Shown piece after piece: positions 25,725-47,510 of a stretch of 64,000 nucleotides of DNA (within the stretch, counting starts at the first letter, position 1; each line of letters starts with the position of its first letter). Below the pieces are notes generated by a model. It was not told the origin of the DNA, ran no database searches, and saw only the letters and a list, made by a program, of their open reading frames with translations. Location: positions 1,134 to 65,133 of IMG/VR virus record IMGVR_UViG_3300032220_001761. One strand, 5' to 3'. Source of the DNA: a virus (lineage: Duplodnaviria > Heunggongvirae > Uroviricota > Caudoviricetes). A program made the position numbers and the translations under genes.

Positions 25725-26244
25725 ACAACAAATCCTTGGAGAAGTATTTACACCTGTTTTTATGACAGAGGATGAATTCGAAAAAGGATACAAAGAATCT
25801 ATATTTTGGACAGATAAGGATTTCATGTCAGAGTATAGAAAGCACATAGCTGCAATGTCTCATGTATCTGAATGTGCGAAGATATACATTCTTAAAAATT
25901 GGGCGAAGGTCAAGGATTGGAGCGAATTAGATGTGGTTATAGTACATGGTCCTTCTGGAAAAATGACGGAATACTATAATTATGTTCCTAGAGAAATTAA
26001 CAACGACCATAAAATAAAGGAAGGGGCTTATTCAAATCTGTTAAAAGAAATTGATGAGAAAAACAAGCTAAAGCATAATCCCATAAGGGAATTTAACGAG
26101 GTTATCCTTGACCCCACAGACGGTGATTTTTCAGTTACAGTAAATGGCAACGAAGAGCACTGGTGGATACAAGACGAAGCTGTTATAATAATAGCAGATT
26201 ATATTGAAGAACAATTAAAAAAACAAGATAATGAGGAAGCTTAA
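25663..26244 (+). CDS. hypothetical protein (start probably the Met at 25702)
   Basis: 193-aa ORF with lysine-rich N-terminus. Confidence 0.45.
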   Translation: MSISKKQKKKLKSMKKKEEYKQQILGEVFTPVFMTEDEFEKGYKESIFWTDKDFMSEYRKHIAAMSHVSECAKIYILKNWAKVKDWSELDVVIVHGPSGKMTEYYNYVPREINNDHKIKEGAYSNLLKEIDEKNKLKHNPIREFNEVILDPTDGDFSVTVNGNEEHWWIQDEAVIIIADYIEEQLKKQDNEEA

Positions 26245-27127
26245 CTTAGCAAATCCAGAAAAAAGTGGGATAGAATTTCAAATTTCTAAATTCCCAGATG
26301 GTCAGCAATCAGTGACTATAAATTCTCCGTTCTTAGCATCAACAGAACCTATAACAATAATCTCTAGAATGAACTCGTTCCGAGATCTTGAGCTTATCAT
26401 CTGTGCTAATGTCGCATTAAAAGAAATAGGAACTAAAGAAATCCATCTCTTTGTACCTTATTTTTTAGGAGCAAGATCAGATCGTAAATTCGTAGACGGA
26501 GGATCTAACTACCTAAAAGATGTCATCTGTCCTATCATCAACATGCAGAATTTCGAAACGGTTACGGTTTTAGATCCTCACTCTGATGTTTTAGAAGCTT
26601 GTCTTAAAAATTTCAGAAAAGAAACCAATATTGAATTTGTAAGAAAAGCTCTTACAAAGATCGATAATACAAATGATGCTAGAGAAAAAATGGTTATCAT
26701 TTCACCTGATGCAGGAGCAATGAAAAAGATCTATCAGGTTGCAGAAGCATTCTCGTTAGACAAAATTGTTATCGCTGCTAAACACAGGGATTTGAAATCT
26801 GGAAAGATTACTCACACGGAAGTACCAGATCTCAATAAATATTCACCAGATTCAAACTTTGTCATTATAGATGACATCTGCGATGGAGGTAGAACATTTA
26901 CTGAAATATCTAAAGTAATCAAATCTCATGTCTGGCCGAGGGACGAATATTTCAGAGGTAAGATCTATTTGATTATTACCCATGGTATTTTCTCTGCTGG
27001 TCTTTTAGATTTGAGTAGAAACTTCGACAATGTATTTACAACAAACAGTGTAAGGGATCTTGAGGTCGAGGATTTTTCAGATTACACTGTATCAAAAGAT
27101 TTTGTAATCCAATTTGAAGTTGTCTAA
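26231..27127 (+). CDS. ribose-phosphate pyrophosphokinase (PRPP synthetase) family protein. Candidate ADP-ribose pyrophosphokinase (Adps) of an NAD+ reconstitution pathway
   Basis: Prs-like blocks: FPDGQ (FsDGE), LELIICANVALKEIGTKEIHLFVPYFLGARSDRK (PYfgYaRQDRK), ISPDAGAMKK, and PRPP-binding loop VIIDDICDGGRT. Confidence 0.7.
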   Translation: MRKLNLANPEKSGIEFQISKFPDGQQSVTINSPFLASTEPITIISRMNSFRDLELIICANVALKEIGTKEIHLFVPYFLGARSDRKFVDGGSNYLKDVICPIINMQNFETVTVLDPHSDVLEACLKNFRKETNIEFVRKALTKIDNTNDAREKMVIISPDAGAMKKIYQVAEAFSLDKIVIAAKHRDLKSGKITHTEVPDLNKYSPDSNFVIIDDICDGGRTFTEISKVIKSHVWPRDEYFRGKIYLIITHGIFSAGLLDLSRNFDNVFTTNSVRDLEVEDFSDYTVSKDFVIQFEVV

Positions 27128-27129
27128 TT

Positions 27130-27498
27130 ATGAAAACAGAATTTAAAATCTCATCTATAGTCGGTATAAAAACCATTAATGAGAGAGAAAATACGTCATT
27201 TCAATGGTTTGATGAAATTCCAAGTAAATCTACATTTTTTGGAATGTTCAAATCTGAAAAAGTATCAGAAGGATTTGGAGAGATTGGGTACAATACGAGG
27301 TATACGGATCTGGACCTAATAAAAAGAGGTTATAACGTAAGTGGAAAGAAGGTATTTTACAGACCATATGCTACAGTCTATTTGGAACACGAGTACGAGG
27401 TACAAAAAACATTTAGATCCAATGAAGAAATGTCAGCATGGGTAAACTACCTAAAGACTGAAAATGGTGGAAATTTTGAAATTGTTAATCACAAATGA
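27130..27498 (+). CDS. hypothetical protein
   Basis: 122-aa ORF between the Prs-like and macro genes. 4-bp overlap downstream. Confidence 0.45.
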   Translation: MKTEFKISSIVGIKTINERENTSFQWFDEIPSKSTFFGMFKSEKVSEGFGEIGYNTRYTDLDLIKRGYNVSGKKVFYRPYATVYLEHEYEVQKTFRSNEEMSAWVNYLKTENGGNFEIVNHK

Positions 27499-28019
27499 GA
27501 TACGAAGAAATACAGGGGGATCTAATCAAATTAGCCAAAGAAGCTAAATTTGATGTTATAGCTCACGGATGCAATTGTCATTCACAAATGGGAGCTGGTT
27601 TAGCACCTCAAATGGCTAAAGCTTTTGGATGTGATAAATTCGAAATGGAATCTTGGGGATCCACTATTGAAAAACTTGGATGTATAGATTTTGAAACATT
27701 GGTATTAGGAAAAAATTCAATTTGGAGTTTAGCTGATGCAGACAACAAAGAAGGTGATCCTGAACTAGCAGTAGTTAATGCCTACACCCAATATAACTAT
27801 GGAAGAAATCACTCGGATGGGGATTTAAAACCTATAGATTATGAAGCACTTACCCTTTGCATGAGAAAAATGAATAAAATTTTTACAGGCAAACATATAG
27901 GTCTTCCACAAATAGGTGCAGGATTAGCAGGAGGAAATTGGAACAGAATTAAAAACATTATTCAAACAGAACTAGTTGACTGCAAAGTCACTGTAGTCAT
28001 TTACAACAAATTAGTATGA
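27495..28019 (+). CDS. macro domain protein (TARG1/OARD1-like ADP-ribose processing)
   Basis: VIAHGCNCHSQMGAGLA and GLPQIGAGLAGG match the OARD1-type macro ADP-ribose pocket (hGCNC..mGaGiA ... G.GlaGG). Confidence 0.65.
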   Translation: MRYEEIQGDLIKLAKEAKFDVIAHGCNCHSQMGAGLAPQMAKAFGCDKFEMESWGSTIEKLGCIDFETLVLGKNSIWSLADADNKEGDPELAVVNAYTQYNYGRNHSDGDLKPIDYEALTLCMRKMNKIFTGKHIGLPQIGAGLAGGNWNRIKNIIQTELVDCKVTVVIYNKLV

Positions 28020-28471
28020 CACTAAAAGACAAAATTCAAAAAGAATTCGTTGAAGCTATGAAAGCTAAAAACGATGTTGCTAAATCTGCCCTTAGCGGAT
28101 TAAAGGCAAAAATTACAGAGGCTGAAAAGGCTAACGGAAACGTATCCCTTGGAGATCCAGAGGTTGTTAAAGTCGTAAGCTCCGCAATCAAACAAAGAAA
28201 GCAATCTGTTGATGCTTTTGAGCAAGCTGGAAGAACTGATCTAGCCAATAAAGAAAAAGGCGAGATTATAGTATTGGAAACATTCCTTCCTAAGCAAATG
28301 ACAGAGGACGAGATTGAAAAGGCCGTAAGAGAAATCATTGCAAATATGCCAGAAGTTGCTACCAATGCTAATGCTCTTCAAGGAAAAACAATGGGTGCTT
28401 TCAACAAAGCTTATTCAGGTCAAGCAGATTCTAAAGTTGTAATGGAGATCATTAAAAAAGTAACAACATGA
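28016..28471 (+). CDS. GatB/YqeY domain protein
   Basis: DKIQKEFVEAMKAKNDVAKSALSGLKAKI...QRKQSVDAFEQAGRTDLANKEKGEIIVLETFLP...ANALQGKTMGAFNKAYSGQADSKVV follows the YqeY/GatB C-terminal domain pattern. Confidence 0.65.
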   Translation: MTLKDKIQKEFVEAMKAKNDVAKSALSGLKAKITEAEKANGNVSLGDPEVVKVVSSAIKQRKQSVDAFEQAGRTDLANKEKGEIIVLETFLPKQMTEDEIEKAVREIIANMPEVATNANALQGKTMGAFNKAYSGQADSKVVMEIIKKVTT

Positions 28472-28692
28472 AACCTATAACAGCTAAAGAAGCTAGAGAA
28501 ATAACTGATGCTTATTCCGAAGCGGGAATGGACGATATTCTAAAAAATATCAGAGAAGGTGCTGCTGGTGGAAATGACCATTTAACAATGGACTACGTTT
28601 CAAAAGGTCAAAAAAAGGTTTTGGAATCTCTTGGATATGGTGTTAATTGGCATGACATGGGGAGAGATGGGTATTGGAAAATTTCATGGTAA
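28468..28692 (+). CDS. hypothetical small protein
   Basis: 74-aa ORF, 4-bp overlap. Confidence 0.4.
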   Translation: MKPITAKEAREITDAYSEAGMDDILKNIREGAAGGNDHLTMDYVSKGQKKVLESLGYGVNWHDMGRDGYWKISW

Positions 28693-28736
28693 AAACAAGA
28701 AAATATTAATCAATACTATTTACACTGGAGTGGATA

Positions 28737-28925
28737 ATGGATAAAAAATTAGAATCTGAGTACATCTATTGGGTAAAGAGGCTAAGGCTCGAAGACCTTC
28801 ATACAGAAATGCAAAATATAGAGTGGGGGATTCAAAATATAAAATCCGAAAAAACTTTAGAAAATGTCCTTGTCAAAAAAGGAATACTCGAAAAAGAATA
28901 CGAAACAAGAAATAACAAGAAATAA
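28737..28925 (+). CDS. hypothetical small protein
   Basis: 62-aa ORF. Confidence 0.3.
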   Translation: MDKKLESEYIYWVKRLRLEDLHTEMQNIEWGIQNIKSEKTLENVLVKKGILEKEYETRNNKK

Positions 28926-28926
28926 A

Positions 28927-29418
28927 ATGGAAAAAAATAGCAAATACTATTTCTTCTATAAAACAAGGCATCCATTTTCCAATTGGCATCCATGTTCATT
29001 TGAAGACAAAGAAGGAAATCAATACACTTGCTCAGAGCAATACATGATGGCTCAGAAAGCTTTACTCTTTGGAGATAAAGAAATATTTGAAGAAATCATG
29101 GACGAACCGGATCCAAAATTTCAAAAAGAATTGGGAAGGAAGGTTAAAGGGTTCGATTCTAAGATATGGAACGATAATGCGAAAAGAATAGTTTATGAAG
29201 GATGTAAGCTTAAATTTGAACAAAATGAAAAGTTACTAAAAGTATTACTTGATACAAAAGGAACTTTTCTAGTAGAGGCTTCTCCATATGATAGAATCTG
29301 GGGTATAGGTCTTGGAGAAGACGATCCAGCAATACACGATCCTGCTAATTGGAATGGATTGAATTGGCTAGGTGAAGTTCTTACCGACTTAAGAGATGAC
29401 ATAATTAATAATCAATAA
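28927..29418 (+). CDS. NADAR-domain (YbiA-like) N-glycosidase / ADP-ribosyl glycohydrolase
   Basis: FSNWHPCSF...YTCSEQYMMAQKALLFGD...LGRKVKGFD...KFEQNEKLLKVLLDTKGTFLVEASPYDRIWGIGL matches the NADAR/YbiA family. Start set to Met at 28927, immediately after the preceding stop. Confidence 0.65.
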   Translation: MEKNSKYYFFYKTRHPFSNWHPCSFEDKEGNQYTCSEQYMMAQKALLFGDKEIFEEIMDEPDPKFQKELGRKVKGFDSKIWNDNAKRIVYEGCKLKFEQNEKLLKVLLDTKGTFLVEASPYDRIWGIGLGEDDPAIHDPANWNGLNWLGEVLTDLRDDIINNQ

Positions 29419-29430
29419 AAACAAAACAAA

Positions 29431-30993
29431 ATGTTCAAACCAAACAGTTTATTCTACAGCGACGGCTATAAGATTGGCCACAAAAAAATGCTTGCTAAAG
29501 GAACTTCTCGTCTTTATGGTACATGGATTCCTAGAAGCATTAAGCATGCTCCTAAAGGTGTTAAGAAAATCCTTTCATTCGGACAACAACTTGCAATGAA
29601 ATGGCTTCATGATGAATTTTCAGAAAACTTTTTTAAACTATCCAAAGAAGATGCAATGCAATTCGGAAATGATATGTCATTGTATCTTGGTATGGATTAT
29701 GATGCTTCGCACTTTGAAGCTCTTCATGATCTAGGATATCTTCCAATTCGTGTAAAATCTTTACCAGAGGGGATCGAGACTTTACCAAATATCCCTCATA
29801 TGACATTCATTAACACTCTTGATGGATTTGCTTGGCTTACTCTTTATCTTGAAACTATCATTTCTTCACTTTCTTGGAAGCCTTCAACTTCGGCAACCAT
29901 TGCATTACAATACAAAAGAAACGTGGTTGAATGGGTAATGAAAACGGATCCAGCAAATTCTTTCCTCATTCCTTTTCTTTGCCATGATTTTTCTGCTAGG
30001 GGATTAAGTCCTTGGGATATGTTATCAAGCGGTCTAGGACACGCTACATCATTTCTAGGATCTGATACAATCATTTGTATCCCAGGAGCACGTTACTTCT
30101 ATAACGAGCCTAATGACCAAGTTGCAATCTACTCTGTAAATGCTTCTGAACACTCCGTATCGACAACTAAGATTTTTACAGTTGGTGAACAACAAATGAT
30201 AGCGGATTGGTTGGTAGATTTTCCTAAAGGTATCTTATCAATTGTATCTGATACTTTTGACCTTTGGAAGTTAATCACCGAGTACTTACCAGCAAATAAA
30301 GAAGCTATCATGGCTCGTGACGGTAAGTTAGTTATTCGTCCCGATTCTGGTGATCCTGTTGATATTATTTGTGGAATCAATACAAGGAATGATCCTGATA
30401 ATCGTTACGTTAAATTAGCTGGTACTCCTGAATACAAAGGAGTAATTGAATTACTTTGGGACATCTTCGGTGGCACAACCAATGAACAGGGTTACAAAGT
30501 ACTAGATCCTCATATCGGAGCAATCTATGGGGATTCAATTAATTTGGATCGTCAAATTCAAATCTATGAAAGATTGGAAGCTAAAGGTTTTGCTGCAACT
30601 AACATTGTTTTAGGAGTAGGATCTTTTACGTACCAAATGAACACTAGAGATACTTTTGGTTTTGCAGCTAAAGGAGCTTGGTTCGAGGTTAAAGAAGAGA
30701 TTGGTCAAACAGTTGATACATTACAGCCAATTTACAAATACACTGGATTTGATATTTTTAAGGATCCTGTAACAGATGATGGTACTAAAAAATCTCTAAA
30801 AGGTATGGTTGCTGTATTTGAAAATGACGGAGACCATTATGTTAAGATTCAATGTACACAGGAAGAAGAGGAAACAGGATTACTACAAGTTATCTATGAA
30901 AATGGTAATTTTTATAACCAATCTTCATTAACTGAGATTAGAGCAAAAATCAATGAGCTTTGTAACGAAAAAGTTCTTGAAACAGAAATTTAA
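29431..30993 (+). CDS. nicotinamide phosphoribosyltransferase (NAMPT/NadV) family protein. Candidate nicotinamide-ADPR transferase (Namat)
   Basis: N-terminal SDGYKIGHKKM...GTSRLYGTWIPRS (TDSYK..H...YP.T...ys.R) and overall 520-aa NAMPT-like length. Confidence 0.8.
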   Translation: MFKPNSLFYSDGYKIGHKKMLAKGTSRLYGTWIPRSIKHAPKGVKKILSFGQQLAMKWLHDEFSENFFKLSKEDAMQFGNDMSLYLGMDYDASHFEALHDLGYLPIRVKSLPEGIETLPNIPHMTFINTLDGFAWLTLYLETIISSLSWKPSTSATIALQYKRNVVEWVMKTDPANSFLIPFLCHDFSARGLSPWDMLSSGLGHATSFLGSDTIICIPGARYFYNEPNDQVAIYSVNASEHSVSTTKIFTVGEQQMIADWLVDFPKGILSIVSDTFDLWKLITEYLPANKEAIMARDGKLVIRPDSGDPVDIICGINTRNDPDNRYVKLAGTPEYKGVIELLWDIFGGTTNEQGYKVLDPHIGAIYGDSINLDRQIQIYERLEAKGFAATNIVLGVGSFTYQMNTRDTFGFAAKGAWFEVKEEIGQTVDTLQPIYKYTGFDIFKDPVTDDGTKKSLKGMVAVFENDGDHYVKIQCTQEEEETGLLQVIYENGNFYNQSSLTEIRAKINELCNEKVLETEI

Positions 30994-31005
30994 TAAGTAT
31001 TGAAT

Positions 31006-31043
31006 CCTCTGCTGTAAATCCCCAACGGCAGAGGGTTTATTTT
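31006..31043 (+). terminator. rho-independent terminator after the NAMPT-like gene
   Basis: CCTCTGC...GCAGAGG stem followed by GTTTATTTT. Confidence 0.6.
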
Positions 31044-31075
31044 AAAGGGGTTTAATTTTTTTCAAATAAACAAAA

Positions 31076-32935: not shown

Positions 32936-32938
32936 AGG

Positions 32939-33415
32939 ATGAAATTACAAGTCCTTAAACCAACTGACGGTGACTCTGTAAAAAACAGAGTCACCGTTTT
33001 TCTTGCAGGATCTATTGAGATGGGTGCTGCAGAAGATTGGCAAACAAAATTAGCCAACGATTTACAAGACATCCCGGTAACACTTTTTAACCCAAGAAGA
33101 GATTCTTGGGATTCTTCATGGGAGCAAAGAATGTCTAATCCAGAGTTCAGATACCAGGTAAACTGGGAGATGAACATGCTAGAATCTTCCGATATAATAT
33201 TTCTTTATCTTTCTCCGGAAACTAAATCCCCTATTTCACTACATGAATTAGGACTTCATGCTGACAGTGGAAAAATGATAGTTTGTTGTCCCGATGGATT
33301 TTGGAGAAAGGGAAACGTTGAAATAACTTGTGCTAGACACGGTATTCCTTTATACAACGATATAAACCATGCAAAGGATGCTTTAATCACGCTAATAAGC
33401 TCTAAAACAATATAA
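32939..33415 (+). CDS. nucleoside 2-deoxyribosyltransferase-like / DNPH1-like N-glycoside hydrolase fold protein
   Basis: VFLAGSIE (iYlAGP-type start), ...SLHELGLHADSGKMIV (catalytic-Glu ELG motif of the NDT/DNPH1 family). 3 bp after the flotillin stop. Confidence 0.5.
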   Translation: MKLQVLKPTDGDSVKNRVTVFLAGSIEMGAAEDWQTKLANDLQDIPVTLFNPRRDSWDSSWEQRMSNPEFRYQVNWEMNMLESSDIIFLYLSPETKSPISLHELGLHADSGKMIVCCPDGFWRKGNVEITCARHGIPLYNDINHAKDALITLISSKTI

Positions 33416-33416
33416 A

Positions 33417-34343
33417 ATGAATGATTTAAAATTTTTGAATACTGCCTTCGTAATAAAAAAGGACAGTAAAACAGGTGGGAACGGAACTATTACCTATATG
33501 GATTTAGAAATGTCACCATCTTCCGACAGGGTTGAAACCTGGGGACTTACAGAAGCAGGGGAAGCCCCACACGAACTTAGAATGGTTACTAGATCTAAAT
33601 TTTTTGAGCTTCAAAGATTTCAGGTAAAGTCGACATACCCTTCAGAACTTATATCTGATCTTAATTATTACCACGGAGTAGATGGTAATTCTATGATTGA
33701 TGAGGCATTGAATAATGAGATGGATCAATCTCTCATTAAAAATCTATACAAAAAATACAGTGAGATTGGAGAAATAACAAGGGTATCCCAATATACAAAA
33801 TGGCAAAAGTTCATTCTTAAAATCTCCCCTAAAATGATTTTTACCAATTATATTAAAGAGGATAGAAATGGATCTGAAATGCTCTATAATAAGATTGTGG
33901 TAGAAGCTAATAAGATAGCATCTAGAACAAGAATAAAACCAGGAGATTTTATTGTATGTGGTTCACTAGTAGGGTCTTTATTACAGGATCACCCAGGATT
34001 TTCATTCGAGTCATTAAATAACTCGATCTCTATGAAAACACCTAGCATAGACTATGTTGGAAACATTGCAGGAAGAATAGCTGTTTATGTTAATGCAAAT
34101 GAAAAGTTTAGTGATGGATGGGTAATTATAGGCAGAAAAACAAACACACATGAAACTGGTGTCTATTTTATTTATGAGGACAGAGAAAAAATTCAACTAG
34201 CGGATATAGATCCATCAAAAAATAAATTTGGTATAACACAAAGAGCTGCAATAGTTGATACCCACGGGGCAGAAAAATCATTTTCAAAAATACACTTCAC
34301 AGTGGGTAAAAAACCATTCTGGAAAAAACTTTTTAATATTTAA
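33417..34343 (+). CDS. hypothetical protein
   Basis: 308-aa ORF, 1 bp after the upstream stop. Confidence 0.5.
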   Translation: MNDLKFLNTAFVIKKDSKTGGNGTITYMDLEMSPSSDRVETWGLTEAGEAPHELRMVTRSKFFELQRFQVKSTYPSELISDLNYYHGVDGNSMIDEALNNEMDQSLIKNLYKKYSEIGEITRVSQYTKWQKFILKISPKMIFTNYIKEDRNGSEMLYNKIVVEANKIASRTRIKPGDFIVCGSLVGSLLQDHPGFSFESLNNSISMKTPSIDYVGNIAGRIAVYVNANEKFSDGWVIIGRKTNTHETGVYFIYEDREKIQLADIDPSKNKFGITQRAAIVDTHGAEKSFSKIHFTVGKKPFWKKLFNI

Positions 34344-34351
34344 AAAAATCC

Positions 34352-35845
34352 ATGGCTATCTTAGGAGATATTAAATATATCGACATGGATATTAATGATC
34401 CATTAGAATTTAAAGAATTCCCAGGGAGAATAGTTTTAGTTACTTCTTTTTTAGATATAGGGAGAGGAAACTGGAAGGATTATTCAAGAAATGCAGATAC
34501 CTATATAAGATCTTTTTTGAATTATCTAGATTATGAGTATGAGATGATAATATTCATAGACGAGAGATACCATAGTGAAATAGTCGGGTATTACAATGAA
34601 TCTAAGTATAAAAATAAAACGATAATCCCAATTAATAAGGATTGGTGCAATGAAAATTTAGATTCGTGGAAAAAGTTAAATTCCTATAATAACATAATGT
34701 CATCAGATTACTATAAAGGAATTGTAGGGCATAGGATAACATCAGGGTCTCCAGAAAATATATCACCAGAGTATAACATTATAAATCATTCAAAGATAGA
34801 TTTTTTAAAGTATTGTATAGATAACAGATTATCAGAATCTGATTTTTTCTGCTGGACTGATTTTGGATACTTCAATGCAATACTCCAAAATAATAATGAT
34901 TACTATCCTAAATCTATTTTAAGCAACAAGAAATTTAATTACGACAAGATAAGTTTTTTTCTTAGAAACAAAATAGAGGAGGTAGATGCAGATACTATCT
35001 ACACTCTAATAAATTCACCAGAGAAATTTACTGGATCATTTTGGGGTGGAAATACAAAAAATATAAATGCTCTTCATAGTTTATATCATGAATCTTTAGA
35101 TGAAATGATGGAGCAAAATATAGCTGACGACGATCAGCATGTATACCTAAAATGTTTTTTAAAAAATCCAGGAATTTTCCAACTGTACTTATCTAATAAA
35201 GAATGGCCAAAAGCTCTTAAATACATGGAGGACAAAAAATATTATACAGGGAAGAAATTTTTTGATTGCGGAACTCACTTTTTTGAAGGATTTGAGAAAT
35301 TCGCTAAAATGTATAATATTGATGATAAATGGAAATGCTATTGTTTCGAAGCTAATCCTATCACTTATTCGATGTCAATAAAAAAGATGAAAGAATTAAT
35401 AGGTGTGGGGCACAATATAGATTATTTCAATTTAGCAGTTACTAATAAAAACACAGAAATCAAAATAAACTGTGCATTAGATTCAGGATCTTTTACAAAT
35501 CAAGGATCAAATATATTAGATTCCCCGCCAGATAGAGACATAGTATATGGGGGTGTTTTTAATTATAACAGCGATTCTTTTTATGTTAGAGGATTAATAT
35601 TCTCAGACTTTCTAAAACAAACTGTAAATGAAGGAGATTTTGTTGTAATTAAAATGGACATAGAGGGATCTGAATTTGATGTTATGGATTCACTAATTGA
35701 AACTGGAACATTCAAACTTATAAGCCAGATTTATGTAGAATATCACGAAAGATTTTTTGAAGATGTTGAAGCTTATAGTGAGAAGAAAAAATCATACGAA
35801 AGAATATTCAAAGAACACAATATAGCAATAAAAGAATGGGAATAG
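34352..35845 (+). CDS. two-domain protein: N-terminal putative glycan-modifying domain plus C-terminal FkbM-family methyltransferase domain
   Basis: C-terminal FkbM blocks FDCGTHFFEGF...YCFEANPITY...NLAV...GDFVVIKMDIEGSEFDVM...IYVEYHE. Confidence 0.5.
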   Translation: MAILGDIKYIDMDINDPLEFKEFPGRIVLVTSFLDIGRGNWKDYSRNADTYIRSFLNYLDYEYEMIIFIDERYHSEIVGYYNESKYKNKTIIPINKDWCNENLDSWKKLNSYNNIMSSDYYKGIVGHRITSGSPENISPEYNIINHSKIDFLKYCIDNRLSESDFFCWTDFGYFNAILQNNNDYYPKSILSNKKFNYDKISFFLRNKIEEVDADTIYTLINSPEKFTGSFWGGNTKNINALHSLYHESLDEMMEQNIADDDQHVYLKCFLKNPGIFQLYLSNKEWPKALKYMEDKKYYTGKKFFDCGTHFFEGFEKFAKMYNIDDKWKCYCFEANPITYSMSIKKMKELIGVGHNIDYFNLAVTNKNTEIKINCALDSGSFTNQGSNILDSPPDRDIVYGGVFNYNSDSFYVRGLIFSDFLKQTVNEGDFVVIKMDIEGSEFDVMDSLIETGTFKLISQIYVEYHERFFEDVEAYSEKKKSYERIFKEHNIAIKEWE

Positions 35846-36420
35846 GAGAGCTTCACAGTCTAGGGATAAGATATGGAACTGACAAGGCAACATATCACGA
35901 TTATCTTAATTTTTACGAAAATAATATAGGTCATTTAAAAAACGAAAGGATTAATATTATGGAAATAGGATTTCTGCACGGGAATTCTATAAAAATGTGG
36001 CTAGATTACTTTACAAATGCTAGAATATATTGCTTAGATATTATAGATTGCTCTTTTACTCACGAAAGATTTCACTATATTAAGATATCACAGGATAATC
36101 CTATTTTAGATAATATTTTTCCAGATTCTTTTTTCGACTTAATTATAGATGATGGTAGTCATATGACATCACATCAGATAAAATCTTTAGAGATATTATG
36201 GAAAAAAGTAAAATCTCCAGGATTTTACATATTAGAGGATTTACATACATCATTTTCTAAGGAGTATGTTGATACTGAAATAACAGCATATGAAATAATA
36301 AATGGGGAGAAATCTATACAATCTATTTCTCCTATCATGGAAGAAACATCTTCTATTGAAATATTTAGAAAAAATCACGGGGTTGGTTCTAATAGTTTAA
36401 CCTCAATCTTAAAAAAATAA
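35836..36420 (+). CDS. SAM-dependent methyltransferase (CmcI/TylF-like)
   Basis: YGTDKATYHDYLNFY N-terminal motif and MEIGFLHGNSIKMW...ARIYCLDI SAM-binding region. Confidence 0.45.
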   Translation: MGIGELHSLGIRYGTDKATYHDYLNFYENNIGHLKNERINIMEIGFLHGNSIKMWLDYFTNARIYCLDIIDCSFTHERFHYIKISQDNPILDNIFPDSFFDLIIDDGSHMTSHQIKSLEILWKKVKSPGFYILEDLHTSFSKEYVDTEITAYEIINGEKSIQSISPIMEETSSIEIFRKNHGVGSNSLTSILKK

Positions 36421-36426
36421 AAAATT

Positions 36427-37008
36427 ATGGCGGTTTCCAGAAAAACATTTAGAATTTGCGAAAATTATTTCGTCTCTGGTAAAAAAATAGCTGAATTGGG
36501 ATCACAATTTGTTGTCGGTGAAGAATGGGGATCTTATGGTCCTCCATATTTTAAAGATGTTTTCAAACATCTTGACATAACATCATTTGATTACAATGGA
36601 GAGAATGGAGCAATAAAAGTAGATCTTTCCATTCCTATAGGCGAAGAATACAAAAATCAGTATGACATAGTCACTAATTTTGGAACAACAGAACATGTTT
36701 CAAATCAGCACACATGTTGGAAAAATATTTTTGATATGCTAAAACCTGATGGCTTAGTCATTAGCGAGATACCAAGAAAAAATAATTGGCCAAACCATTG
36801 TAAATACTATTATGACGAAGTTAGTTTTAATTCACTGTCGGATGATTTTATAATAATGGAAATCTCCAATATATTCTATGATGGACAAGGAGATTTAATC
36901 TATACGGTTTTAAGAAAAAAACATGATGGTGAATTTAAAACTACCACATACAATCTAATGAATTCTGTACAGGTTGATCAATATTTTGTAGACCCACAAG
37001 GACATTAA
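36427..37008 (+). CDS. hypothetical protein (possibly another methyltransferase-fold protein)
   Basis: 193-aa ORF, KKIAELGSQ.. weakly SAM-motif-like. Confidence 0.4.
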   Translation: MAVSRKTFRICENYFVSGKKIAELGSQFVVGEEWGSYGPPYFKDVFKHLDITSFDYNGENGAIKVDLSIPIGEEYKNQYDIVTNFGTTEHVSNQHTCWKNIFDMLKPDGLVISEIPRKNNWPNHCKYYYDEVSFNSLSDDFIIMEISNIFYDGQGDLIYTVLRKKHDGEFKTTTYNLMNSVQVDQYFVDPQGH

Positions 37009-37026
37009 AAATAAAAAAATAAAAAA

Positions 37027-38631
37027 ATGGATAAGTTAATAGATTGCTTCACATTCTATAATGAGCTAGATATGCTAGAGCTCAGATTTAGAGAGATATA
37101 TGATACTGTCGATAAATTCATAATAGTTGAAGCCGATAAAACATTCGGAGGAGAAAAAAAGCCTTTTTTACTGGATGAGAACATAGAAAGATTCTCTAAA
37201 TGGAGTGATAAAATAATTCATATCAAGATAAATTTTCCTAATATAGGATCAAATCCTTGGGACTATGAAAGGTATCAAAGGAATTCTTTCATGCAAGCTC
37301 TGTATTTTTTAGGATTGACAGATTCTGACAAGGTTATGATAACAGATGTTGATGAAATCCCAGATCCCAATACTATCTCATACATTAAGACTTATCCATT
37401 GAATGGAATTTATAAATTAGAGATGGATCATTATTTTGGTTCTTTTAGAAATAAAATGTCCAATCCGGAAAAATGGTATCATCCTAAGATAATGAATTGG
37501 GGGCATCTTAAAAATTCAACCCCAGATAACTGTAGATCCGACTTCAATTGCCAATGGTGGGAAAGAGGAGGATGGCATCTTTCTTATTTCGGAGGTCCAG
37601 AAAAGATATCAAAAAAGATTGGAAGTTTTTCTCATCAAGAATACAATAATGAAGTAATAAGGGATGTAAACAGGATATCAGATAAAATAAAATCTAACAG
37701 GGATTTTTTAGATGATTGGAGATCCTTCGTTAATATAAACCCGGAATCTAATCCTTATCTACCAAAAAATTGGAGAATACTTGAAAAATACGAAGAGGAG
37801 TATTTTCCTGAACTTTATGCTAAAAAAGATTTAGTCCTAGGATCTGCTATAAACATAGATCTAAATTCCATAATGACATTTATTAGGTCGTTGAGAAAAT
37901 ACAATAAAGAATGTAGCATATCAATCATAGTTGAAAATAATATAGACGAAGTTAAAAAATCTTCTATCAAAAAGGAGGGGGTAAATCTTATTTTTACATC
38001 AATCAGTACATTTTTAGAATCACCAATAAATAACATCAGATACCTAAAGTTTTTTGAATTTATCAAAGATCATGAAAATGAATATAAAAACGTATTGATC
38101 TCTGATGTTAGAGACGTTTATTTTCAAAATGATCCATTTAAAGGATTGGAAAAAAACTCAATATTCTTTGCTGAGGAGGATGAATCTAAGACAATAAAGG
38201 ATGATGATAGATTTAACTCGAGATGGATTAGACAAACATATGGGGATATTATTTTAGAGGATCTAAATAATGAAAAAATAACATGCTGTGGAACAGTAAT
38301 AGGATCATATAGAAACATATCAGCATATCTAGAATTTATGACTAATGAAATAATTAGATTCTATAAAGAGAAAAATCCTTTCTTTAATGATATGCTAGAC
38401 ACAGCAATTCATACCTATATTTATTACAAAAGGAGGGATTTGCTAGAAAATCCTTCTATGAAAAATAATGGGGATTTATTTGGGACAGTGGGAATAACGG
38501 TAAAAGAATTCCCAGATAAAATAACAATAAAGAATAATTTAATAGAGGTGAACGGAAAAATTCCTTCTATAATCCATCAATACGATAGGTCAGAATGGTT
38601 AAAAAAATTTATTAATCTAAATTCAAAATAA
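37027..38631 (+). CDS. glycosyltransferase family 17-like (bisecting-GlcNAc-transferase-like N-domain) with a C-terminal extension
   Basis: LIDCFTFYNELDMLELRFREIYDTVDKFIIVEADKTFGGEKKP matches the GT17 N-terminal signature (CF.F.NE.D.LE.R...L...VD.F.IVE...TF.G..K). Confidence 0.55.
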   Translation: MDKLIDCFTFYNELDMLELRFREIYDTVDKFIIVEADKTFGGEKKPFLLDENIERFSKWSDKIIHIKINFPNIGSNPWDYERYQRNSFMQALYFLGLTDSDKVMITDVDEIPDPNTISYIKTYPLNGIYKLEMDHYFGSFRNKMSNPEKWYHPKIMNWGHLKNSTPDNCRSDFNCQWWERGGWHLSYFGGPEKISKKIGSFSHQEYNNEVIRDVNRISDKIKSNRDFLDDWRSFVNINPESNPYLPKNWRILEKYEEEYFPELYAKKDLVLGSAINIDLNSIMTFIRSLRKYNKECSISIIVENNIDEVKKSSIKKEGVNLIFTSISTFLESPINNIRYLKFFEFIKDHENEYKNVLISDVRDVYFQNDPFKGLEKNSIFFAEEDESKTIKDDDRFNSRWIRQTYGDIILEDLNNEKITCCGTVIGSYRNISAYLEFMTNEIIRFYKEKNPFFNDMLDTAIHTYIYYKRRDLLENPSMKNNGDLFGTVGITVKEFPDKITIKNNLIEVNGKIPSIIHQYDRSEWLKKFINLNSK

Positions 38632-38637
38632 CAAAAA

Positions 38638-39183
38638 ATGAGAAATAAAATTTTCGACAAAATATGGGATCTACAGACTAAAGTCCCTACTATAAATAAG
38701 TTCTTCTCTTTTAGTCTTGAAGACTTACATGAAAATCCAGAAAAATGTCTGGAGGAGATAGAGCATTATCTAGAAAAACACGGAGATAAAATAGAGGATT
38801 TTTCATTCGAATCATGGATTGACGAAGATACCTTTAAGCCTGTTCTTATGTTAAAGATGGTACCTGTTGAAGAATTGGCGAAACATCTATTCCCTTCGAA
38901 TGTTCTAAACCTTCTTCTTCCCTCATCTAAAGAATCAGAGATCCTAAGAAATAGAATCACTTCAGTTCTTTCGAAATATGCTTTTGATTTTAACGATGAT
39001 GATACTAGAAAAGCTATGGCTAGTGATCTAGAATTCGTTCTTTCTGGGGTAGAAGTACTGGATAAAACCACATTTGAAAATATTGACAAAGGGATACTTA
39101 ATTTCATCGTAAGACACGATGATCATGAAATGACATTACAAGAGTATTTGGAGCTTGTAGCGGACAAAAAAAGATATGAATAA
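38638..39183 (+). CDS. hypothetical protein
   Basis: 181-aa ORF. Confidence 0.45.
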   Translation: MRNKIFDKIWDLQTKVPTINKFFSFSLEDLHENPEKCLEEIEHYLEKHGDKIEDFSFESWIDEDTFKPVLMLKMVPVEELAKHLFPSNVLNLLLPSSKESEILRNRITSVLSKYAFDFNDDDTRKAMASDLEFVLSGVEVLDKTTFENIDKGILNFIVRHDDHEMTLQEYLELVADKKRYE

Positions 39184-39574
39184 AGAGATTTTAAATATAG
39201 CTTTAATAGCACACGACGGAAAAAAAGCTGACATGGTTAGCTTTGTAGCGAAAAGGTTGGATTTTTTCAACAGAAATAGCGTAGAAATTTACGCTACAGG
39301 TACTACTGGTAAGTTTTTGAAGTTTGCCGGGATACAAAAAGTTCATCCTATGCTCAGTGGGCCTAACGGTGGAGATGCACAAATAGGTGCTATGGTTGCA
39401 GAAGGAAAAATAAAGGCTGTGCTCTTTTTTAGAGATCCTTTGAATCCACACCCACATGAACCAGATATACAGATGTTAATGAGAATATGTGATGTTCACA
39501 CTGTTCCTTTAGCAACTAATTACATGACAGCAAAATATGTAATAGACTGGTTTGATACTAATATCCCTGAATAA
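39176..39574 (+). CDS. mgsA: methylglyoxal synthase
   Basis: Collinear with E. coli MgsA: IALIAHDGKKADMV, YATGTTGKF, MLSGPNGGDAQIGAMVAEGKI, LFFRDPLNPHPHEPD, PLATN. The catalytic His-Asp and GGD residues are conserved. Confidence 0.8.
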   Translation: MNKEILNIALIAHDGKKADMVSFVAKRLDFFNRNSVEIYATGTTGKFLKFAGIQKVHPMLSGPNGGDAQIGAMVAEGKIKAVLFFRDPLNPHPHEPDIQMLMRICDVHTVPLATNYMTAKYVIDWFDTNIPE

Positions 39575-39611: not shown

Positions 39612-40715
39612 TTATGAGAAGTTTTCAGATATTTGATTATCTTCAAATGATCCGCCAGCTCCGGCACCTCCAAAATGACCCCCTCCAAAATGTGTTTCGT
39701 GTTTATCTTCAAATAGGGTAGAACCATCTCCAACTACTTCTCTTAACAGGAAATAGTTTATCATATAATTTTGATCATCTAAATTATTGGTTAGATATAA
39801 ACCATTTTCGTCAGTTTCTGTAATACTCTTAGCTTTAGGCGTAAAGTCTTGGATTCTTTTCAGATAGCTTCTTTTGGTTAAATCCCCGTGCCATATATGA
39901 AAAAGATTTCCTTTAACATATCCAATCTTTCCTTGTACAACCCAATAGAATTTTGATGACCATCCGTTTACATTTCCGAGATCATCAGAAAAAGATTTGG
40001 CTATACATGAGTGACCAATTTGGCCTGCTGCTGCATGTGCAATTATATGATCCGCTCCACCGACCAAGGCTTTATCGAAAAGTGGAACCTCCTCTAATAC
40101 TTCTCTTCTTGCACCCCATGCAAATCCTACATGACCGTGGATATCATAATTTTCTCTGGCAGATAGATGTTTAGAGTAAACGTAATTAGCGCAGAAGCTT
40201 CTCCACATATCAGGATGCCTTAAATCTTTATCCATGGAAAACTTCTTGTGATTTTCAAAATCAAAATTGGGTTTGTCCATATCTTTTTGAAGATGAATGC
40301 ACCATTCAAAAGGTTGAATAATCTTATTAGAATGAAGTTCTTGAACTCCTTCTACTATCCAATTTTCGTTGTCAAAAATAACATCCGCGTCTACCCAGAA
40401 AACAAATTTATATTCCTCTGGAAGTGTTGAAACTATTTTATTCAAAAGCGATTCCTTGTGCCATAGGAGATTTTTTGTTCTTATGACAGATACATTCTTG
40501 AGATGAGAAAACTCCGGTGAATCTTCACCAATTACACACTCAATAATCCTGAAATTTGTGTGCTTAATAGATTCATAGAATTTCATGAATGCTTTTCTTC
40601 GATACTCAGATTTCTGAGGGTTAAAGAAGCAAGAAATTATAACAGCCTCCGGATGGGATTTGTATCCAGATTGTTTTTGTTTTTTAAAAAAATTTGAAAA
40701 GAACATTTTATGCAA
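39612..40715 (-). CDS. putative GT-A-fold glycosyltransferase with glycine-rich C-terminus
   Basis: FVFWVDADVIF (DxD-type motif), overall nucleotide-diphospho-sugar transferase-like. C-terminal HFGGGHFGGAGAGGSF. Confidence 0.4.
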   Translation of the reverse strand: MHKMFFSNFFKKQKQSGYKSHPEAVIISCFFNPQKSEYRRKAFMKFYESIKHTNFRIIECVIGEDSPEFSHLKNVSVIRTKNLLWHKESLLNKIVSTLPEEYKFVFWVDADVIFDNENWIVEGVQELHSNKIIQPFEWCIHLQKDMDKPNFDFENHKKFSMDKDLRHPDMWRSFCANYVYSKHLSARENYDIHGHVGFAWGARREVLEEVPLFDKALVGGADHIIAHAAAGQIGHSCIAKSFSDDLGNVNGWSSKFYWVVQGKIGYVKGNLFHIWHGDLTKRSYLKRIQDFTPKAKSITETDENGLYLTNNLDDQNYMINYFLLREVVGDGSTLFEDKHETHFGGGHFGGAGAGGSFEDNQISENFS

Positions 40716-45690: not shown

Positions 45691-45865
45691 GACAAATGAA
45701 GAGCACCTCGAAGAGATTCTACACCATGCCCATCAGTTAGGAATAGTGAAGGAGTTAGAAAGTAGGATACCGGCAAATGTAAAATACCCCGATCTTTCAA
45801 CAGTTTATCTCCGCGAGATGCTCAAGATTGTAAAGGAAAAGAATCTTACCTATTCATCAGATTAA
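45689..45865 (+). CDS. hypothetical small protein (58 aa, below ORF-track cutoff)
   Basis: ATG at 45689 to TAA at 45863 in an otherwise empty gap. Charged/helical composition. Confidence 0.3.
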   Translation: MTNEEHLEEILHHAHQLGIVKELESRIPANVKYPDLSTVYLREMLKIVKEKNLTYSSD

Positions 45866-47454: not shown

Positions 47455-47469
47455 TTTCTTTTTTAAAAA

Positions 47470-47499
47470 GAAGGACTATCCAGTTAAGAATAGTCCTTC
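47470..47499. terminator. 10-bp perfect hairpin GAAGGACTAT/ATAGTCCTTC between the binding-protein gene and the permease gene. Possible internal terminator/attenuator
   Basis: Read directly. Flanked by T-runs on both strands (TTTTTAAAAAAG on the minus strand). Confidence 0.45.
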
Positions 47500-47510
47500 A
47501 GATTATTTTA

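What the first reader, a model, noticed from the sequence alone, without database searches (positions are those of the whole stretch)
39176..39574. Bona fide methylglyoxal synthase in a phage-like genome
The 132-aa protein is collinear with E. coli MgsA, including the catalytic His/Asp and the GGD phosphate-binding motif. MgsA converts DHAP to the toxic electrophile methylglyoxal. I am not aware of a characterised phage mgsA. It could divert host triose phosphates, relieve phosphate stress to free Pi for nucleotide synthesis, or produce methylglyoxal as a growth-arrest or anti-competitor signal.
Basis: partly seen in the sequence, partly recalled or inferred. Interest (0 to 1): 0.6.

Follow-up and report, generated by a model that had tools for sequence, protein, structure and literature searches.

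The report
Phage-encoded methylglyoxal synthase gene
A large uncultured phage carries an intact copy of the bacterial enzyme that turns the glycolytic intermediate DHAP into methylglyoxal plus free phosphate; it belongs to a widespread phage-specific branch of that enzyme family and is an untested auxiliary metabolic gene, not a new kind of system.

Summary
ORF 39176-39574 (+) encodes a 132-aa protein that passes both NCBIfam methylglyoxal synthase equivalog cutoffs. It keeps every catalytic and phosphate-binding residue of E. coli MgsA, and its model superposes on solved MgsA structures (TM 0.82-0.87).

The genome is a real but uncultured large phage: the window holds a Gp23-family head-protein homologue, endolysin, Rnl1-type RNA ligase, Dda helicase, NAMPT, PRPP synthetase, ThyA and a sigma factor. 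The same arrangement recurs in independent assemblies and in sister phages on 162-320 kb contigs.

At least 156 IMG/VR contigs carry relatives. The best 80 give 54 distinct sequences that form a near-exclusive viral clade, whose closest cellular relatives are Bacteroidota at 64% identity or less. Selection is strongly purifying (pN 0.05-0.06 with saturated pS). The enzyme shows no viral-specific active-site change.

The most likely role is an auxiliary metabolic gene that runs the methylglyoxal bypass in infected cells, releasing Pi from triose phosphate. That role is inferred, not shown.

Two metagenome surveys have already listed mgsA as a viral AMG, but I found no characterised phage enzyme. 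Verdict: new member of a known kind, moderate interest.

The parts
39176..39574 (+). mgsA: methylglyoxal synthase (EC 4.2.3.3), 132 aa. It is the short type, without the E. coli C-terminal tail that carries Arg150.
   Evidence: ORF. Pfam and NCBIfam equivalog cutoffs passed. PDB sequence matches at E 4e-37. Catalytic residues conserved. AF2 model pLDDT 89.4 with TM 0.82-0.87 to solved MgsA structures. Purifying selection.
38638..39183 (+). 181-aa lineage-specific ORF of unknown function. Its stop overlaps the mgsA start by 8 nt (ATGAATAA), which suggests translational coupling.
   Evidence: ORF. Only 18 homologues, all at least 63% identical, with no Pfam domain. It always lies directly upstream of mgsA in the sister phages, and the junction is conserved. 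AF2 model is mediocre (pLDDT 74, pTM 0.42) and gives no significant fold match. No PADLOC hit.
37027..38631 (+). 534-aa protein with a Glyco_transf_17 domain, directly upstream of ORF181-mgsA. It corresponds to the N-terminal ~520 residues of a 1209-1215-aa GT17-methyltransferase fusion protein that occupies the same position in the sister phages.
   Evidence: Pfam GT17 from precomputed annotation. Sister phage gene tables. 52% identity over 520-530 residues to the fusion proteins.
34352..37008 (+). Three ORFs of glycan-modification type: HtrL_YibB + FkbM methyltransferase (497 aa), a 194-aa ORF that weakly matches the methyltransferase part of the sister fusion protein, and a 193-aa Methyltransf_23-like ORF. 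This is the variable part of the block that ends in mgsA.
26231..30993 (+). Head of the same co-directional gene block: PRPP synthetase, NADAR and NAMPT (an NAD-salvage module). This is context showing that mgsA sits in an auxiliary-metabolism region.
   Evidence: PHROGs, Pfam and NCBIfam matches. Tightly spaced co-directional ORFs from 26231 to 39574.

Best explanation
The gene encodes an active methylglyoxal synthase carried by an uncultured large (roughly 160-320 kb) T4-like phage.

Enzyme chemistry (established knowledge of MgsA): Asp67 (E. coli Asp71) abstracts the C3 proton of dihydroxyacetone phosphate. His94/His13 and Asp97 help form the enediol(ate). Phosphate, held by Lys17, Thr41/43/44 and Ser61/Gly62, is eliminated, and the enol product tautomerises to methylglyoxal.

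Origin: the gene belongs to a phage-specific clade that descends from a Bacteroidota-type mgsA and has been kept under strong purifying selection in many large phages.

Inferred role: an auxiliary metabolic gene that opens the methylglyoxal bypass during infection. It would release inorganic phosphate trapped in triose phosphate, relieve sugar-phosphate build-up, and let carbon reach pyruvate through host glyoxalases without the Pi- and ADP-requiring lower glycolysis. This would favour phage nucleotide and NAD synthesis. Because the phosphate site is intact, the enzyme is probably still inhibited by Pi and so self-limiting.

My confidence in the enzyme identity is about 0.9 and in the phage clade about 0.85. 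The physiological role is inference, at about 0.45.
For: Enzyme identity:
- Both NCBIfam equivalog cutoffs are passed.
- Solved MgsA chains match at E 4e-37.
- All catalytic and phosphate-binding residues are conserved (reference verified), and they are essentially invariant across 200 viral and cellular sequences.
- The AF2 model (pLDDT 89.4) has solved MgsA structures as its top 26 PDB hits, at TM 0.82-0.87 and rmsd 1.6-2.0 A.
- The viral consensus differs from the cellular consensus at only two conservative, non-catalytic positions.

Functional retention: against the sister phages pN is 0.048-0.060 while pS is 0.71-0.87. Gene GC is 36.6% against 33.8% for the window.

Phage context:
- The window encodes NAMPT, ThyA, Dda helicase, RlaP, RNA ligase, endolysins, a sigma factor, PRPP synthetase and a Gp23-domain protein.
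- The identical locus appears in two independent assemblies.
- Sister phages on 162-320 kb contigs show the same synteny.

Phage clade:
- 156 IMG/VR contigs carry relatives; 24 of the best 80 are at least 100 kb.
- 78 of 80 viral loci share no flanking gene with isolate Bacteroidota mgsA loci, whereas cellular loci do share flanks with each other.
- In 13 distinct viral lineages a T4-type major head protein lies within 10 kb of mgsA.
- The NJ tree places 54 viral and 34 metagenome sequences in one clade containing only 4 'genome' sequences, and a near-identical clade recurs in bootstraps (mean best Jaccard 0.986).
- The closest cellular proteins are 64% identical or less, nearly all from Bacteroidota.

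Role:
- mgsA is the last gene of a co-directional block that begins with an NAD-salvage module.
- In other lineages it lies near thyA, RNA ligase, NAMPT and the CCA-adding enzyme.
- Short MgsA enzymes that lack the Arg150 tail still show phosphate cooperativity (nH 1.5; PMC4133812).
Against: - There is no biochemical, expression or metabolite evidence.
- The TIGR00160 cutoff is passed by only 2.3 bits.
- No phosphate-acquisition gene lies nearby. The neighbouring ABC transporter is NitT/TauT-like, not Pst.
- No glyoxalase I, II or III homologue was found in the window or in any fetched locus, so any bypass depends entirely on host detoxification. Otherwise methylglyoxal would be toxic to a cell the phage still needs.
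- The sampling environment, and therefore P limitation, could not be established.
- The host is unknown. Bacteroidota is inferred from the MgsA tree alone.
- Exact monophyly of the viral clade has only about 49% NJ bootstrap support.
- The selection of sequences for the tree (the best 80 from each collection) is biased towards the query.
Confidence: 0.55

Rival explanations
1. Methylglyoxal itself is the product that matters. The phage makes the electrophile on purpose, to arrest host growth and macromolecular synthesis (host takeover), to exclude superinfecting phages, or to harm neighbouring competitor cells after lysis. Phosphate release would be incidental.
For: The enzyme is intact and under strong purifying selection. 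The window and the fetched viral loci encode no glyoxalase-type detoxification gene, so the phage adds a source of methylglyoxal without adding a sink. From established knowledge, methylglyoxal is growth-arresting and damages DNA and protein at sub-millimolar levels.
Against: The phosphate site is fully conserved, as are the allosteric-path residues Asp14, Pro88 and Arg103 (E. coli D20, P92, R107). No viral-specific substitution suggests deregulation, so the enzyme probably stays inhibited at normal Pi, which suits a dedicated toxin generator poorly. Most Bacteroidota already have mgsA and presumably have detoxification systems. No PADLOC defence or exclusion signature was found.
Confidence: 0.2
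2. MgsA works with the adjacent glycosyltransferase/methyltransferase genes and the coupled 181-aa ORF. It would supply a three-carbon unit (methylglyoxal, or lactaldehyde or lactate derived from it) for a phage-directed modification of a glycan or another macromolecule.
For: The order GT17 protein -> ORF181 -> mgsA is conserved in all window-clade phages, even where the rest of the neighbourhood is rearranged. The ATGAATAA start/stop overlap is also conserved. A second lineage (P0022, 73% identical) has mgsA next to a sugar-nucleotide modification cluster of cupin, PfkB, epimerase, WbqC, hexapeptide transferase and DegT genes.
Against: In most other viral lineages mgsA has unrelated neighbours such as the major head protein, thyA or helicases. 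The window's GT and MT proteins have homologues only in the sister phages. I know of no pathway that uses free methylglyoxal as a glycan building block. ORF181 has no recognisable fold or domain.
Confidence: 0.08
3. The protein has the MGS fold but a different activity, as in other MGS-like domain proteins, so the name is misleading.
For: PF02142 also covers non-MgsA domains (the CPS allosteric domain and PurH). CPS domains do appear as weaker fold hits at TM 0.62-0.68. TIGR00160 is only narrowly passed.
Against: NF003559 is passed by 75 bits. Identity to biochemically and structurally characterised MgsAs is 42-52% over the full length. Every catalytic residue is present. The top 26 fold hits are all MgsA.
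Confidence: 0.04
4. The gene is not really phage-borne. It would be host DNA, either mis-assembled into a phage contig or part of a bacterial island.
For: The 64-kb window contains no terminase, portal or tail gene among the ORFs scanned. Its only head-protein homologue is a short 308-aa Gp23-domain protein. Some INPHARED 'phage' hits are UNVERIFIED, unannotated fragments.
Against: The same locus is assembled independently in ENA and Logan data. It is conserved in sister phages from many samples on contigs of 162-320 kb. Both flanks are phage-type genes. GC is ameliorated to the phage. No flanking gene is shared with bacterial mgsA loci. In 13 other lineages a full-length T4-type major head protein lies within 10 kb.
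Confidence: 0.03

Closest known systems
Short-type bacterial methylglyoxal synthases with solved structures (Thermus sp. GH5 2xw6/2x8w, T. thermophilus 1wo8, B. subtilis 6f2c, Borrelia 8u2v)
   Same: Sequence matches at E 4e-37 to 2e-32, with 46-52% identity. The length is similar in the Thermus chains (126-134 aa). The fold is the same (TM 0.82-0.87) and all catalytic and phosphate-binding residues are present. The Thermus enzyme likewise has no C-terminal Arg150 tail.
   Different: This gene is encoded by a phage rather than a cell. No biochemical data exist for it. It is preceded by a translationally coupled ORF of unknown function.
E. coli MgsA (1b93/1egh), the mechanistic reference
   Same: Collinear alignment at 42% identity. 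H19, D20, K23, T45, T47, T48, S65, G66, D71, D91, H98, D101, P92 and R107 are all conserved.
   Different: It lacks about 20 C-terminal residues, including Arg150. In E. coli, Arg150 forms the inter-subunit salt bridge with Asp20 that sharpens phosphate cooperativity (PMC4133812). Pi regulation is therefore probably weaker, or of the Thermus type.
Bacteroidota MgsA (Flavobacterium, Saprospiraceae, Cyclobacteriaceae; Elizabethkingia 6phe)
   Same: These are the closest cellular relatives, at 54-64% identity and 120-130 aa. They are the probable donor lineage.
   Different: Their conserved chromosomal neighbourhoods are not shared with the viral loci. They fall outside the viral clade, apart from three Flavobacteriales/Bacteroidia MAG sequences (L083, L084, L093). 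One of these (L084) sits in a local GC dip, which suggests back-transfer.
[quoted passage not shown]
   Same: The same gene family on large, T4-like, uncultured phage scaffolds, listed as an auxiliary metabolic gene.
   Different: Those papers only list a KEGG annotation. They give no residue analysis, phylogeny, selection, synteny or function. I could not test whether their scaffolds belong to the clade described here, because their sequences are not held.
Classical central-carbon AMGs of phages (cyanophage talC, zwf, gnd, CP12; phosphate-regulon genes pstS/phoH)
   Same: The concept is the same: a host-derived metabolic gene kept under purifying selection to re-route host carbon or phosphate flux during infection (established knowledge).
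   Different: The pathway differs: it is a glycolytic bypass that produces a toxic electrophile. Unlike those examples, there is no expression or physiological evidence.

Membership tests
Methylglyoxal synthase (EC 4.2.3.3; NCBIfam NF003559 / TIGR00160; Pfam PF02142) | Scores above the curated family cutoffs over the full length | tested here: met
   NF003559 at 159.2 bits against a cutoff of 84. TIGR00160 at 149.2 bits against 146.9 (narrow). PF02142 at 59.1 bits against 24.1.
Methylglyoxal synthase (EC 4.2.3.3; NCBIfam NF003559 / TIGR00160; Pfam PF02142) | Catalytic base Asp71, and His98, His19 and Asp101 (E. coli numbering) | tested here: met
   D67, H94, H13 and D97 are conserved. The reference was verified as identical to 1b93_A. 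These positions are invariant in 199-200 of 200 relatives.
Methylglyoxal synthase (EC 4.2.3.3; NCBIfam NF003559 / TIGR00160; Pfam PF02142) | Phosphate-binding residues Lys23, Thr45, Thr47, Thr48, Ser65 and Gly66, and the GGD motif | tested here: met
   K17, T41, T43, T44, S61, G62 and G65-G66-D67 are all present and invariant across relatives.
Methylglyoxal synthase (EC 4.2.3.3; NCBIfam NF003559 / TIGR00160; Pfam PF02142) | MGS alpha/beta fold superposable on solved MgsA structures | tested here: met
   AF2 model with pLDDT 89.4 and pTM 0.84. The top 26 Foldseek PDB hits are MgsA, at TM 0.82-0.87 and rmsd 1.6-2.0 A.
Methylglyoxal synthase (EC 4.2.3.3; NCBIfam NF003559 / TIGR00160; Pfam PF02142) | Homohexameric assembly | not tested
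   Only a monomer was modelled.
Methylglyoxal synthase (EC 4.2.3.3; NCBIfam NF003559 / TIGR00160; Pfam PF02142) | Catalyses DHAP -> methylglyoxal + Pi and is inhibited by Pi | not testable with these tools
   Requires an enzyme assay.
E. coli-type long MgsA subfamily with strong phosphate cooperativity | C-terminal extension carrying Arg150, which forms a salt bridge to Asp20 of the neighbouring subunit | tested here: not met
   The protein ends 4 residues after the position aligned to E. coli residue 132 and has no equivalent Arg. It is of the short Thermus/Bacteroidota type. This is a subfamily trait and does not define MgsA as a whole.
Phage auxiliary metabolic gene (AMG) | Encoded inside a bona fide phage genome, flanked on both sides by phage genes, and not an assembly artefact | tested here: met
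   Phage-type genes lie on both sides across the 64 kb. The identical locus appears in two assemblies. Synteny holds in sister phages from many samples. No flanks are shared with bacterial mgsA loci.
Phage auxiliary metabolic gene (AMG) | Homologue of a host metabolic gene, maintained by selection in phages | tested here: met
   The closest cellular relatives are Bacteroidota MgsAs at 64% identity or less. The viral clade comprises 54 distinct IMG/VR sequences plus metagenome sequences. pN 0.05-0.06 against pS 0.71-0.87.
Phage auxiliary metabolic gene (AMG) | Expressed during infection and alters host metabolism to the phage's benefit | not testable with these tools
   No cultured phage-host pair exists. 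The closest isolates share at most 30-46% identity in core proteins.

The most novel reading that the evidence does not exclude
The phage-specific MgsA clade may be kept not for phosphate or carbon economy but as a deliberate methylglyoxal generator. The product could serve as a host-arrest or superinfection-exclusion agent. Alternatively, working with the conserved GT17 protein -> ORF181 -> MgsA triad, it could be a C3 precursor for a phage-directed chemical modification of a glycan or of nucleic acid. Methylglyoxal forms carboxyethyl adducts on guanine (established chemistry). Either would be a previously undescribed use of a reactive electrophile by a virus.
Probability: 0.12. Interest if true: 0.75.

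Novelty: new member of a known kind. Interest (0 to 1): 0.4.

Why it matters
Methylglyoxal synthase sits at a decision point of glycolysis: it trades a toxic product for the release of phosphate trapped in triose phosphate.

The gene forms a phage-specific, strongly conserved clade in many large phages. At least 156 IMG/VR contigs carry it, 24 of the best 80 are 100 kb or longer, and one sister phage is listed in 47 blocks of the assembly collection. This suggests that the bypass gives phages a recurrent advantage, plausibly where phosphate limits the synthesis of very large genomes.

It adds a glycolytic-bypass enzyme to the set of central-carbon AMGs, which cyanophage pentose-phosphate and Calvin-cycle genes currently dominate. 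It also offers a simple testable case, with an enzyme assay plus infection under high and low Pi, of whether a virus tolerates or exploits an endogenous toxin. If the role were toxin production or precursor supply instead, it would be considerably more unusual.

In itself, however, the enzyme is orthodox, and its presence in viromes has already been noted.

Tried and rejected
1. Megablast of 20 kb around the gene against 50,697 phage records found nothing. This is an uncultured lineage: the Dda helicase is at most 30% and the RNA ligase at most 46% identical to isolate phages.
2. PHROGs has no family for MgsA. PADLOC gave nothing for MgsA or its neighbours, so I dropped any link to a defence system.
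3. I tested whether the nearby ABC ATPase and permease (45857-47454) form a Pst phosphate transporter, which would have supported the Pi hypothesis. They do not: they resemble NitT/TauT-type systems and score far below every equivalog cutoff.
4. I searched for glyoxalase I and II and a DJ-1/YajL-type deglycase in the window and in all 165 loci fetched by then, and found none.
5. Sigma-70 promoter and intrinsic-terminator scans around the gene were at shuffle level and uninformative.
6. For ORF181 I tried a homologue search, an AF2 model and Foldseek against PDB and BFVD. No domain or significant fold match emerged.
7. I looked for viral-clade-specific substitutions that might indicate deregulation or a new function. 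Only F31 and V36 differ, both conservative and non-catalytic.
8. The 22 INPHARED tblastn hits are unannotated or UNVERIFIED fragments at 47% identity or less. I could not decide whether they are phage or host DNA.
9. I tried to identify the sampling environment from accession numbers in the literature and failed.
10. No tRNA genes were found in the window or in the related loci checked, so they give no host clue.
I repeated it with session proteins only.
Full report
**Observation.** An ATG-started ORF of 132 codons lies at exactly 39176-39574 on the + strand. Its product matches Pfam MGS (PF02142, E 4.9e-16). It also passes both NCBIfam methylglyoxal synthase equivalog models: NF003559 at 159.2 bits against a cutoff of 84, and TIGR00160 at 149.2 bits against 146.9, which is a narrow pass. 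phmmer against PDB sequences returns only methylglyoxal synthases, from Thermus sp. GH5 (2xw6, E 4e-37) to E. coli (1b93, E 1.4e-29).

The alignment to it is collinear. Every residue known to matter is present (E. coli -> window):
- His19 -> H13
- Asp20 -> D14
- Lys23 -> K17
- Thr45/47/48 -> T41/43/44
- Ser65/Gly66 -> S61/G62
- Asp71 -> D67, within the GGD motif
- Asp91 -> D87
- Pro92 -> P88
- His98 -> H94
- Asp101 -> D97
- Arg107 -> R103

An AlphaFold2 model built on 26 sequences (pLDDT 89.4, pTM 0.84) has solved MgsA chains as its top 26 Foldseek hits in the PDB, at TM 0.82-0.87 and rmsd 1.6-2.0 A. The MGS domains of carbamoyl-phosphate synthetase follow at TM 0.62-0.68. The one structural difference from E. 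coli is the absence of the roughly 20-residue C-terminal tail carrying Arg150. The protein is of the short type seen in Thermus and Bacteroidota. According to PMC4133812, the short Thermus enzyme still responds cooperatively to phosphate (nH 1.5), though less sharply than with an added tail.

**Is the genome a phage?** The window is 30-38% GC, has no tRNA genes, and has no DNA-level match among 50,697 phage records. Its gene content is nevertheless typical of a large T4-like phage. Searches identify:
- thymidylate synthase
- Rnl1-type RNA ligase
- phosphoesterases
- a sigma factor
- two GH19-type endolysin-like proteins
- an RlaP nucleotidyltransferase
- PRPP synthetase, NADAR and NAMPT
- a nucleoside deoxyribosyltransferase-like protein
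- a Gp23-family head-protein homologue
- a CCA-adding enzyme
- a Dda-like helicase

The exact MgsA protein is encoded on two independently assembled contigs with the same neighbours. Sister phages with 86-92% identical MgsA show the same synteny on contigs of 162-320 kb. One of them is an IMG/VR viral genome of 174,942 bp that shares 26 window genes within 20 kb. Core proteins are at most 30-46% identical to those of any isolate phage. This is therefore an uncultured lineage, and its host is unknown. Misassembly or host contamination is effectively excluded.

**Distribution and origin.** A pattern scan of IMG/VR found 156 viral contigs encoding relatives. Of the best 80, 24 are at least 100 kb and 6 at least 200 kb. 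To test whether these are really viral contexts, I called ORFs in all loci and compared them all against all. Of the 80 viral loci, 78 share no flanking gene with mgsA loci from isolate or complete Bacteroidota genomes, while most share flanks with other viral loci. As a control, cellular loci do share flanks with each other. In 13 distinct viral MgsA lineages a full-length T4-type major head protein (phrog_138, E 4e-66) lies within 10 kb of mgsA.

In species-representative genomes, the closest cellular proteins are 64% identical or less. Nearly all come from Bacteroidota, including Flavobacterium, Saprospiraceae and Cyclobacteriaceae. A neighbour-joining tree places all 54 distinct viral sequences and the 34 closest metagenome proteins in one clade. 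That clade contains only four 'genome' sequences:
- Three come from Flavobacteriales or Bacteroidia MAGs (L083, L084, L093).

The other 74 cellular sequences lie outside. Exact membership of this clade recurs in only 48.5% of 200 bootstraps, but a nearly identical clade is always present (mean best Jaccard 0.986).

One nested MAG sequence (L084) lies on a genuine 648-kb Bacteroidota contig, next to genes with a T9SS sorting domain, an ECF sigma factor and a TonB-dependent receptor. It sits in a local GC dip (0.36 against 0.40-0.50), which suggests transfer from a low-GC source such as a phage.

The simplest reading is one or a few old acquisitions from Bacteroidota, followed by long retention and spread among large phages. 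One caveat applies: both sequence sets were chosen by similarity to the query, and only NJ was available.

**Is it functional?** Against the sister phages, non-synonymous divergence is 0.048-0.060 while synonymous sites are saturated (pS 0.71-0.87), which puts dN/dS well below 0.1. Gene GC (36.6%) is close to that of the window (33.8%). The twelve catalytic and phosphate-binding positions are invariant in 199-200 of 200 viral and cellular sequences. The viral consensus differs from the cellular consensus at only two conservative, non-catalytic positions (F31 and V36). Nothing suggests a new function or deregulation. It looks like an orthodox MgsA.

**Local anatomy.** mgsA is the last gene of a tightly packed co-directional block (26231-39574). 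The block begins with the NAD-salvage genes and ends with glycan-modification genes. The mgsA start overlaps the stop of a 181-aa ORF by 8 nt (ATGAATAA), and this junction is conserved in the sister phages. That ORF has only 18 homologues, all within this phage lineage. It has no Pfam, PADLOC or fold match.

Directly upstream lies a GT17-domain protein. It corresponds to the N-terminal ~520 residues of a 1209-1215-aa GT17-methyltransferase fusion found at the same position in the sisters. The order GT17 protein -> ORF181 -> mgsA survives even where the wider neighbourhood is rearranged. A second lineage (MgsA 73% identical) has mgsA next to a sugar-nucleotide modification cluster. In most other viral lineages the neighbours are unrelated: head protein, thyA, helicases, CCA-adding enzyme. 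Promoter and terminator scans were at chance level.

**Mechanism.** Sequence and fold show that the protein has the full MgsA catalytic apparatus. From established MgsA enzymology I infer the chemistry. Asp67 abstracts the C3 proton of DHAP. His94/His13/Asp97 assist formation of the enediolate. Phosphate, bound by K17, T41, T43, T44, S61 and G62, is eliminated, and the enol tautomerises to methylglyoxal. Pi competes at the same site, so the enzyme works when DHAP is high and Pi is low.

The physiological role is inferred with less certainty. I favour an auxiliary metabolic gene that opens the methylglyoxal bypass in infected cells. It would free Pi locked in triose phosphate and keep upper glycolysis and glycerol-phosphate catabolism running. 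That would support nucleotide and NAD synthesis for a very large genome, with host glyoxalases carrying the carbon on to D-lactate and pyruvate. The orthodox, probably Pi-inhibited enzyme and the metabolic neighbourhood support this reading.

Several observations count against it, or at least fail to support it:
- No phosphate-uptake gene lies nearby. The adjacent ABC transporter is not Pst.
- No phage-encoded glyoxalase was found.
- The environment and the host are unknown.

The rivals are deliberate toxin production for host arrest or exclusion, supply of a C3 precursor to the adjacent glycan-modification genes, a different activity on the same fold, and non-phage origin. The last two are poorly supported.

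**Comparison with what is known.** The protein meets every sequence and fold criterion of the MgsA family that I could test. It does not belong to the long, E. coli-type subfamily with Arg150.

The literature searches found no characterised phage MgsA. Two metagenome surveys do list mgsA as a viral AMG:
- In Lake Baikal it lies on a dominant 120-kb scaffold typed to the T4-like phage Cr30 (PMC8066274).
- It also appears in plastisphere vOTUs (PMC12397222).

PHROGs v4 has no family for it. No annotated isolate phage in INPHARED carries it. The 22 tblastn hits there are unannotated or UNVERIFIED fragments at 47% identity or less, and I could not determine whether they are phage or host DNA.

**Verdict.** The finding is a new member of a known kind: a known enzyme in the known category of phage auxiliary metabolic genes, already noticed in viromes but never analysed or tested.

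This analysis adds four points. The gene defines a widespread phage-specific clade derived from Bacteroidota. It is under strong purifying selection. It is enzymatically orthodox. In this lineage it is locked to an unknown coupled ORF and a glycosyltransferase.

Interest is moderate (0.4). A virus that maintains a generator of a toxic electrophile is mildly surprising and easy to test, but nothing here points to a new mechanism.

Noticed in passing
window 54818-56947 (-), with 54394-54825; sister loci L168 14758-19157: The phage encodes a 709-aa GAF-PAS-PAS histidine kinase. Sister phages additionally encode a response-regulator receiver protein and a second HATPase protein next to it. That amounts to an apparent phage-borne two-component system.
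   Followed up: partly
window 56989-57420 (-); L168 19199-19627: A 143-aa ORF is homologous (74% identity to L003) to the sister-phage gene annotated with Pfam SmpB (PF01668), the tmRNA partner protein. No tmRNA gene was found in the window.
   Followed up: partly
window 45857-49286 (-): A phage-borne ABC transporter ATPase and permease (NitT/TauT-like, far below all equivalog cutoffs) lie next to a 591-aa protein with a C-terminal OmpA peptidoglycan-binding domain. The arrangement is conserved in the sister phages.
   Followed up: partly
window 33417-34343 (+): A short (308-aa) protein has a partial Gp23 major-head-protein domain (phrog_138, E 9.6e-15, covering profile positions 200-375 of 444). 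It is conserved at the same length in the sister phages. It is too short to be the capsid protein itself and may be a paralogue with another role.
   Followed up: no
window 26231-30993 (+): An NAD-salvage module: PRPP synthetase, a NADAR-family protein (also matching the riboflavin-intermediate N-glycosidase model) and NAMPT. It sits at the head of the same co-directional block as mgsA.
   Followed up: partly
window 4590-5828 (-): The thymidylate synthase homologue is unusually long (412 aa). The Pfam match spans residues 6-335 for only 233 profile positions, which implies a large insertion. thyA homologues lie within 10 kb of mgsA in 12 distinct viral lineages.
   Followed up: no
window 39612-40715 (-): The 367-aa ORF convergent with mgsA has no Pfam, NCBIfam or PADLOC match. 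It contains a 'WVDADVIF' DxD-like motif and a Gly-rich C-terminus. In sister phages an R2K/ATP-grasp-like or VWA gene occupies this position instead.
   Followed up: no
L084 5001-5381 (Flavobacteriales MAG CALTBR010000001.1, 648-kb contig): A chromosomal mgsA nests inside the viral clade. It sits in a local GC dip (0.36 against 0.40-0.50) among typical Bacteroidota genes (T9SS-tail protein, ECF sigma factor, TonB-dependent receptor). This may be a phage-to-host back-transfer.
   Followed up: partly
L166 2199-12618 (ENA ERZ1744922 NODE_7, 36 kb): A 73%-identical MgsA with a C-terminal extension (139 aa) lies directly upstream of a cupin, PfkB kinase, epimerase, WbqC, hexapeptide transferase, PhyH and DegT aminotransferase cluster. 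This is a second case of mgsA beside sugar-modification genes.
   Followed up: partly
window 9303-10298 (-): A 331-aa AAA-type ATPase gives weak matches to PADLOC IetA models (E 4e-13). IetA is a component of the IetAS anti-plasmid/anti-phage system. Here it lies next to the RNA ligase in a phage.
   Followed up: no
window 15678-17945 (+): A 755-aa subtilase-family (Peptidase_S8) protein is encoded by the phage (phrog_3677, E 3e-37).
   Followed up: no
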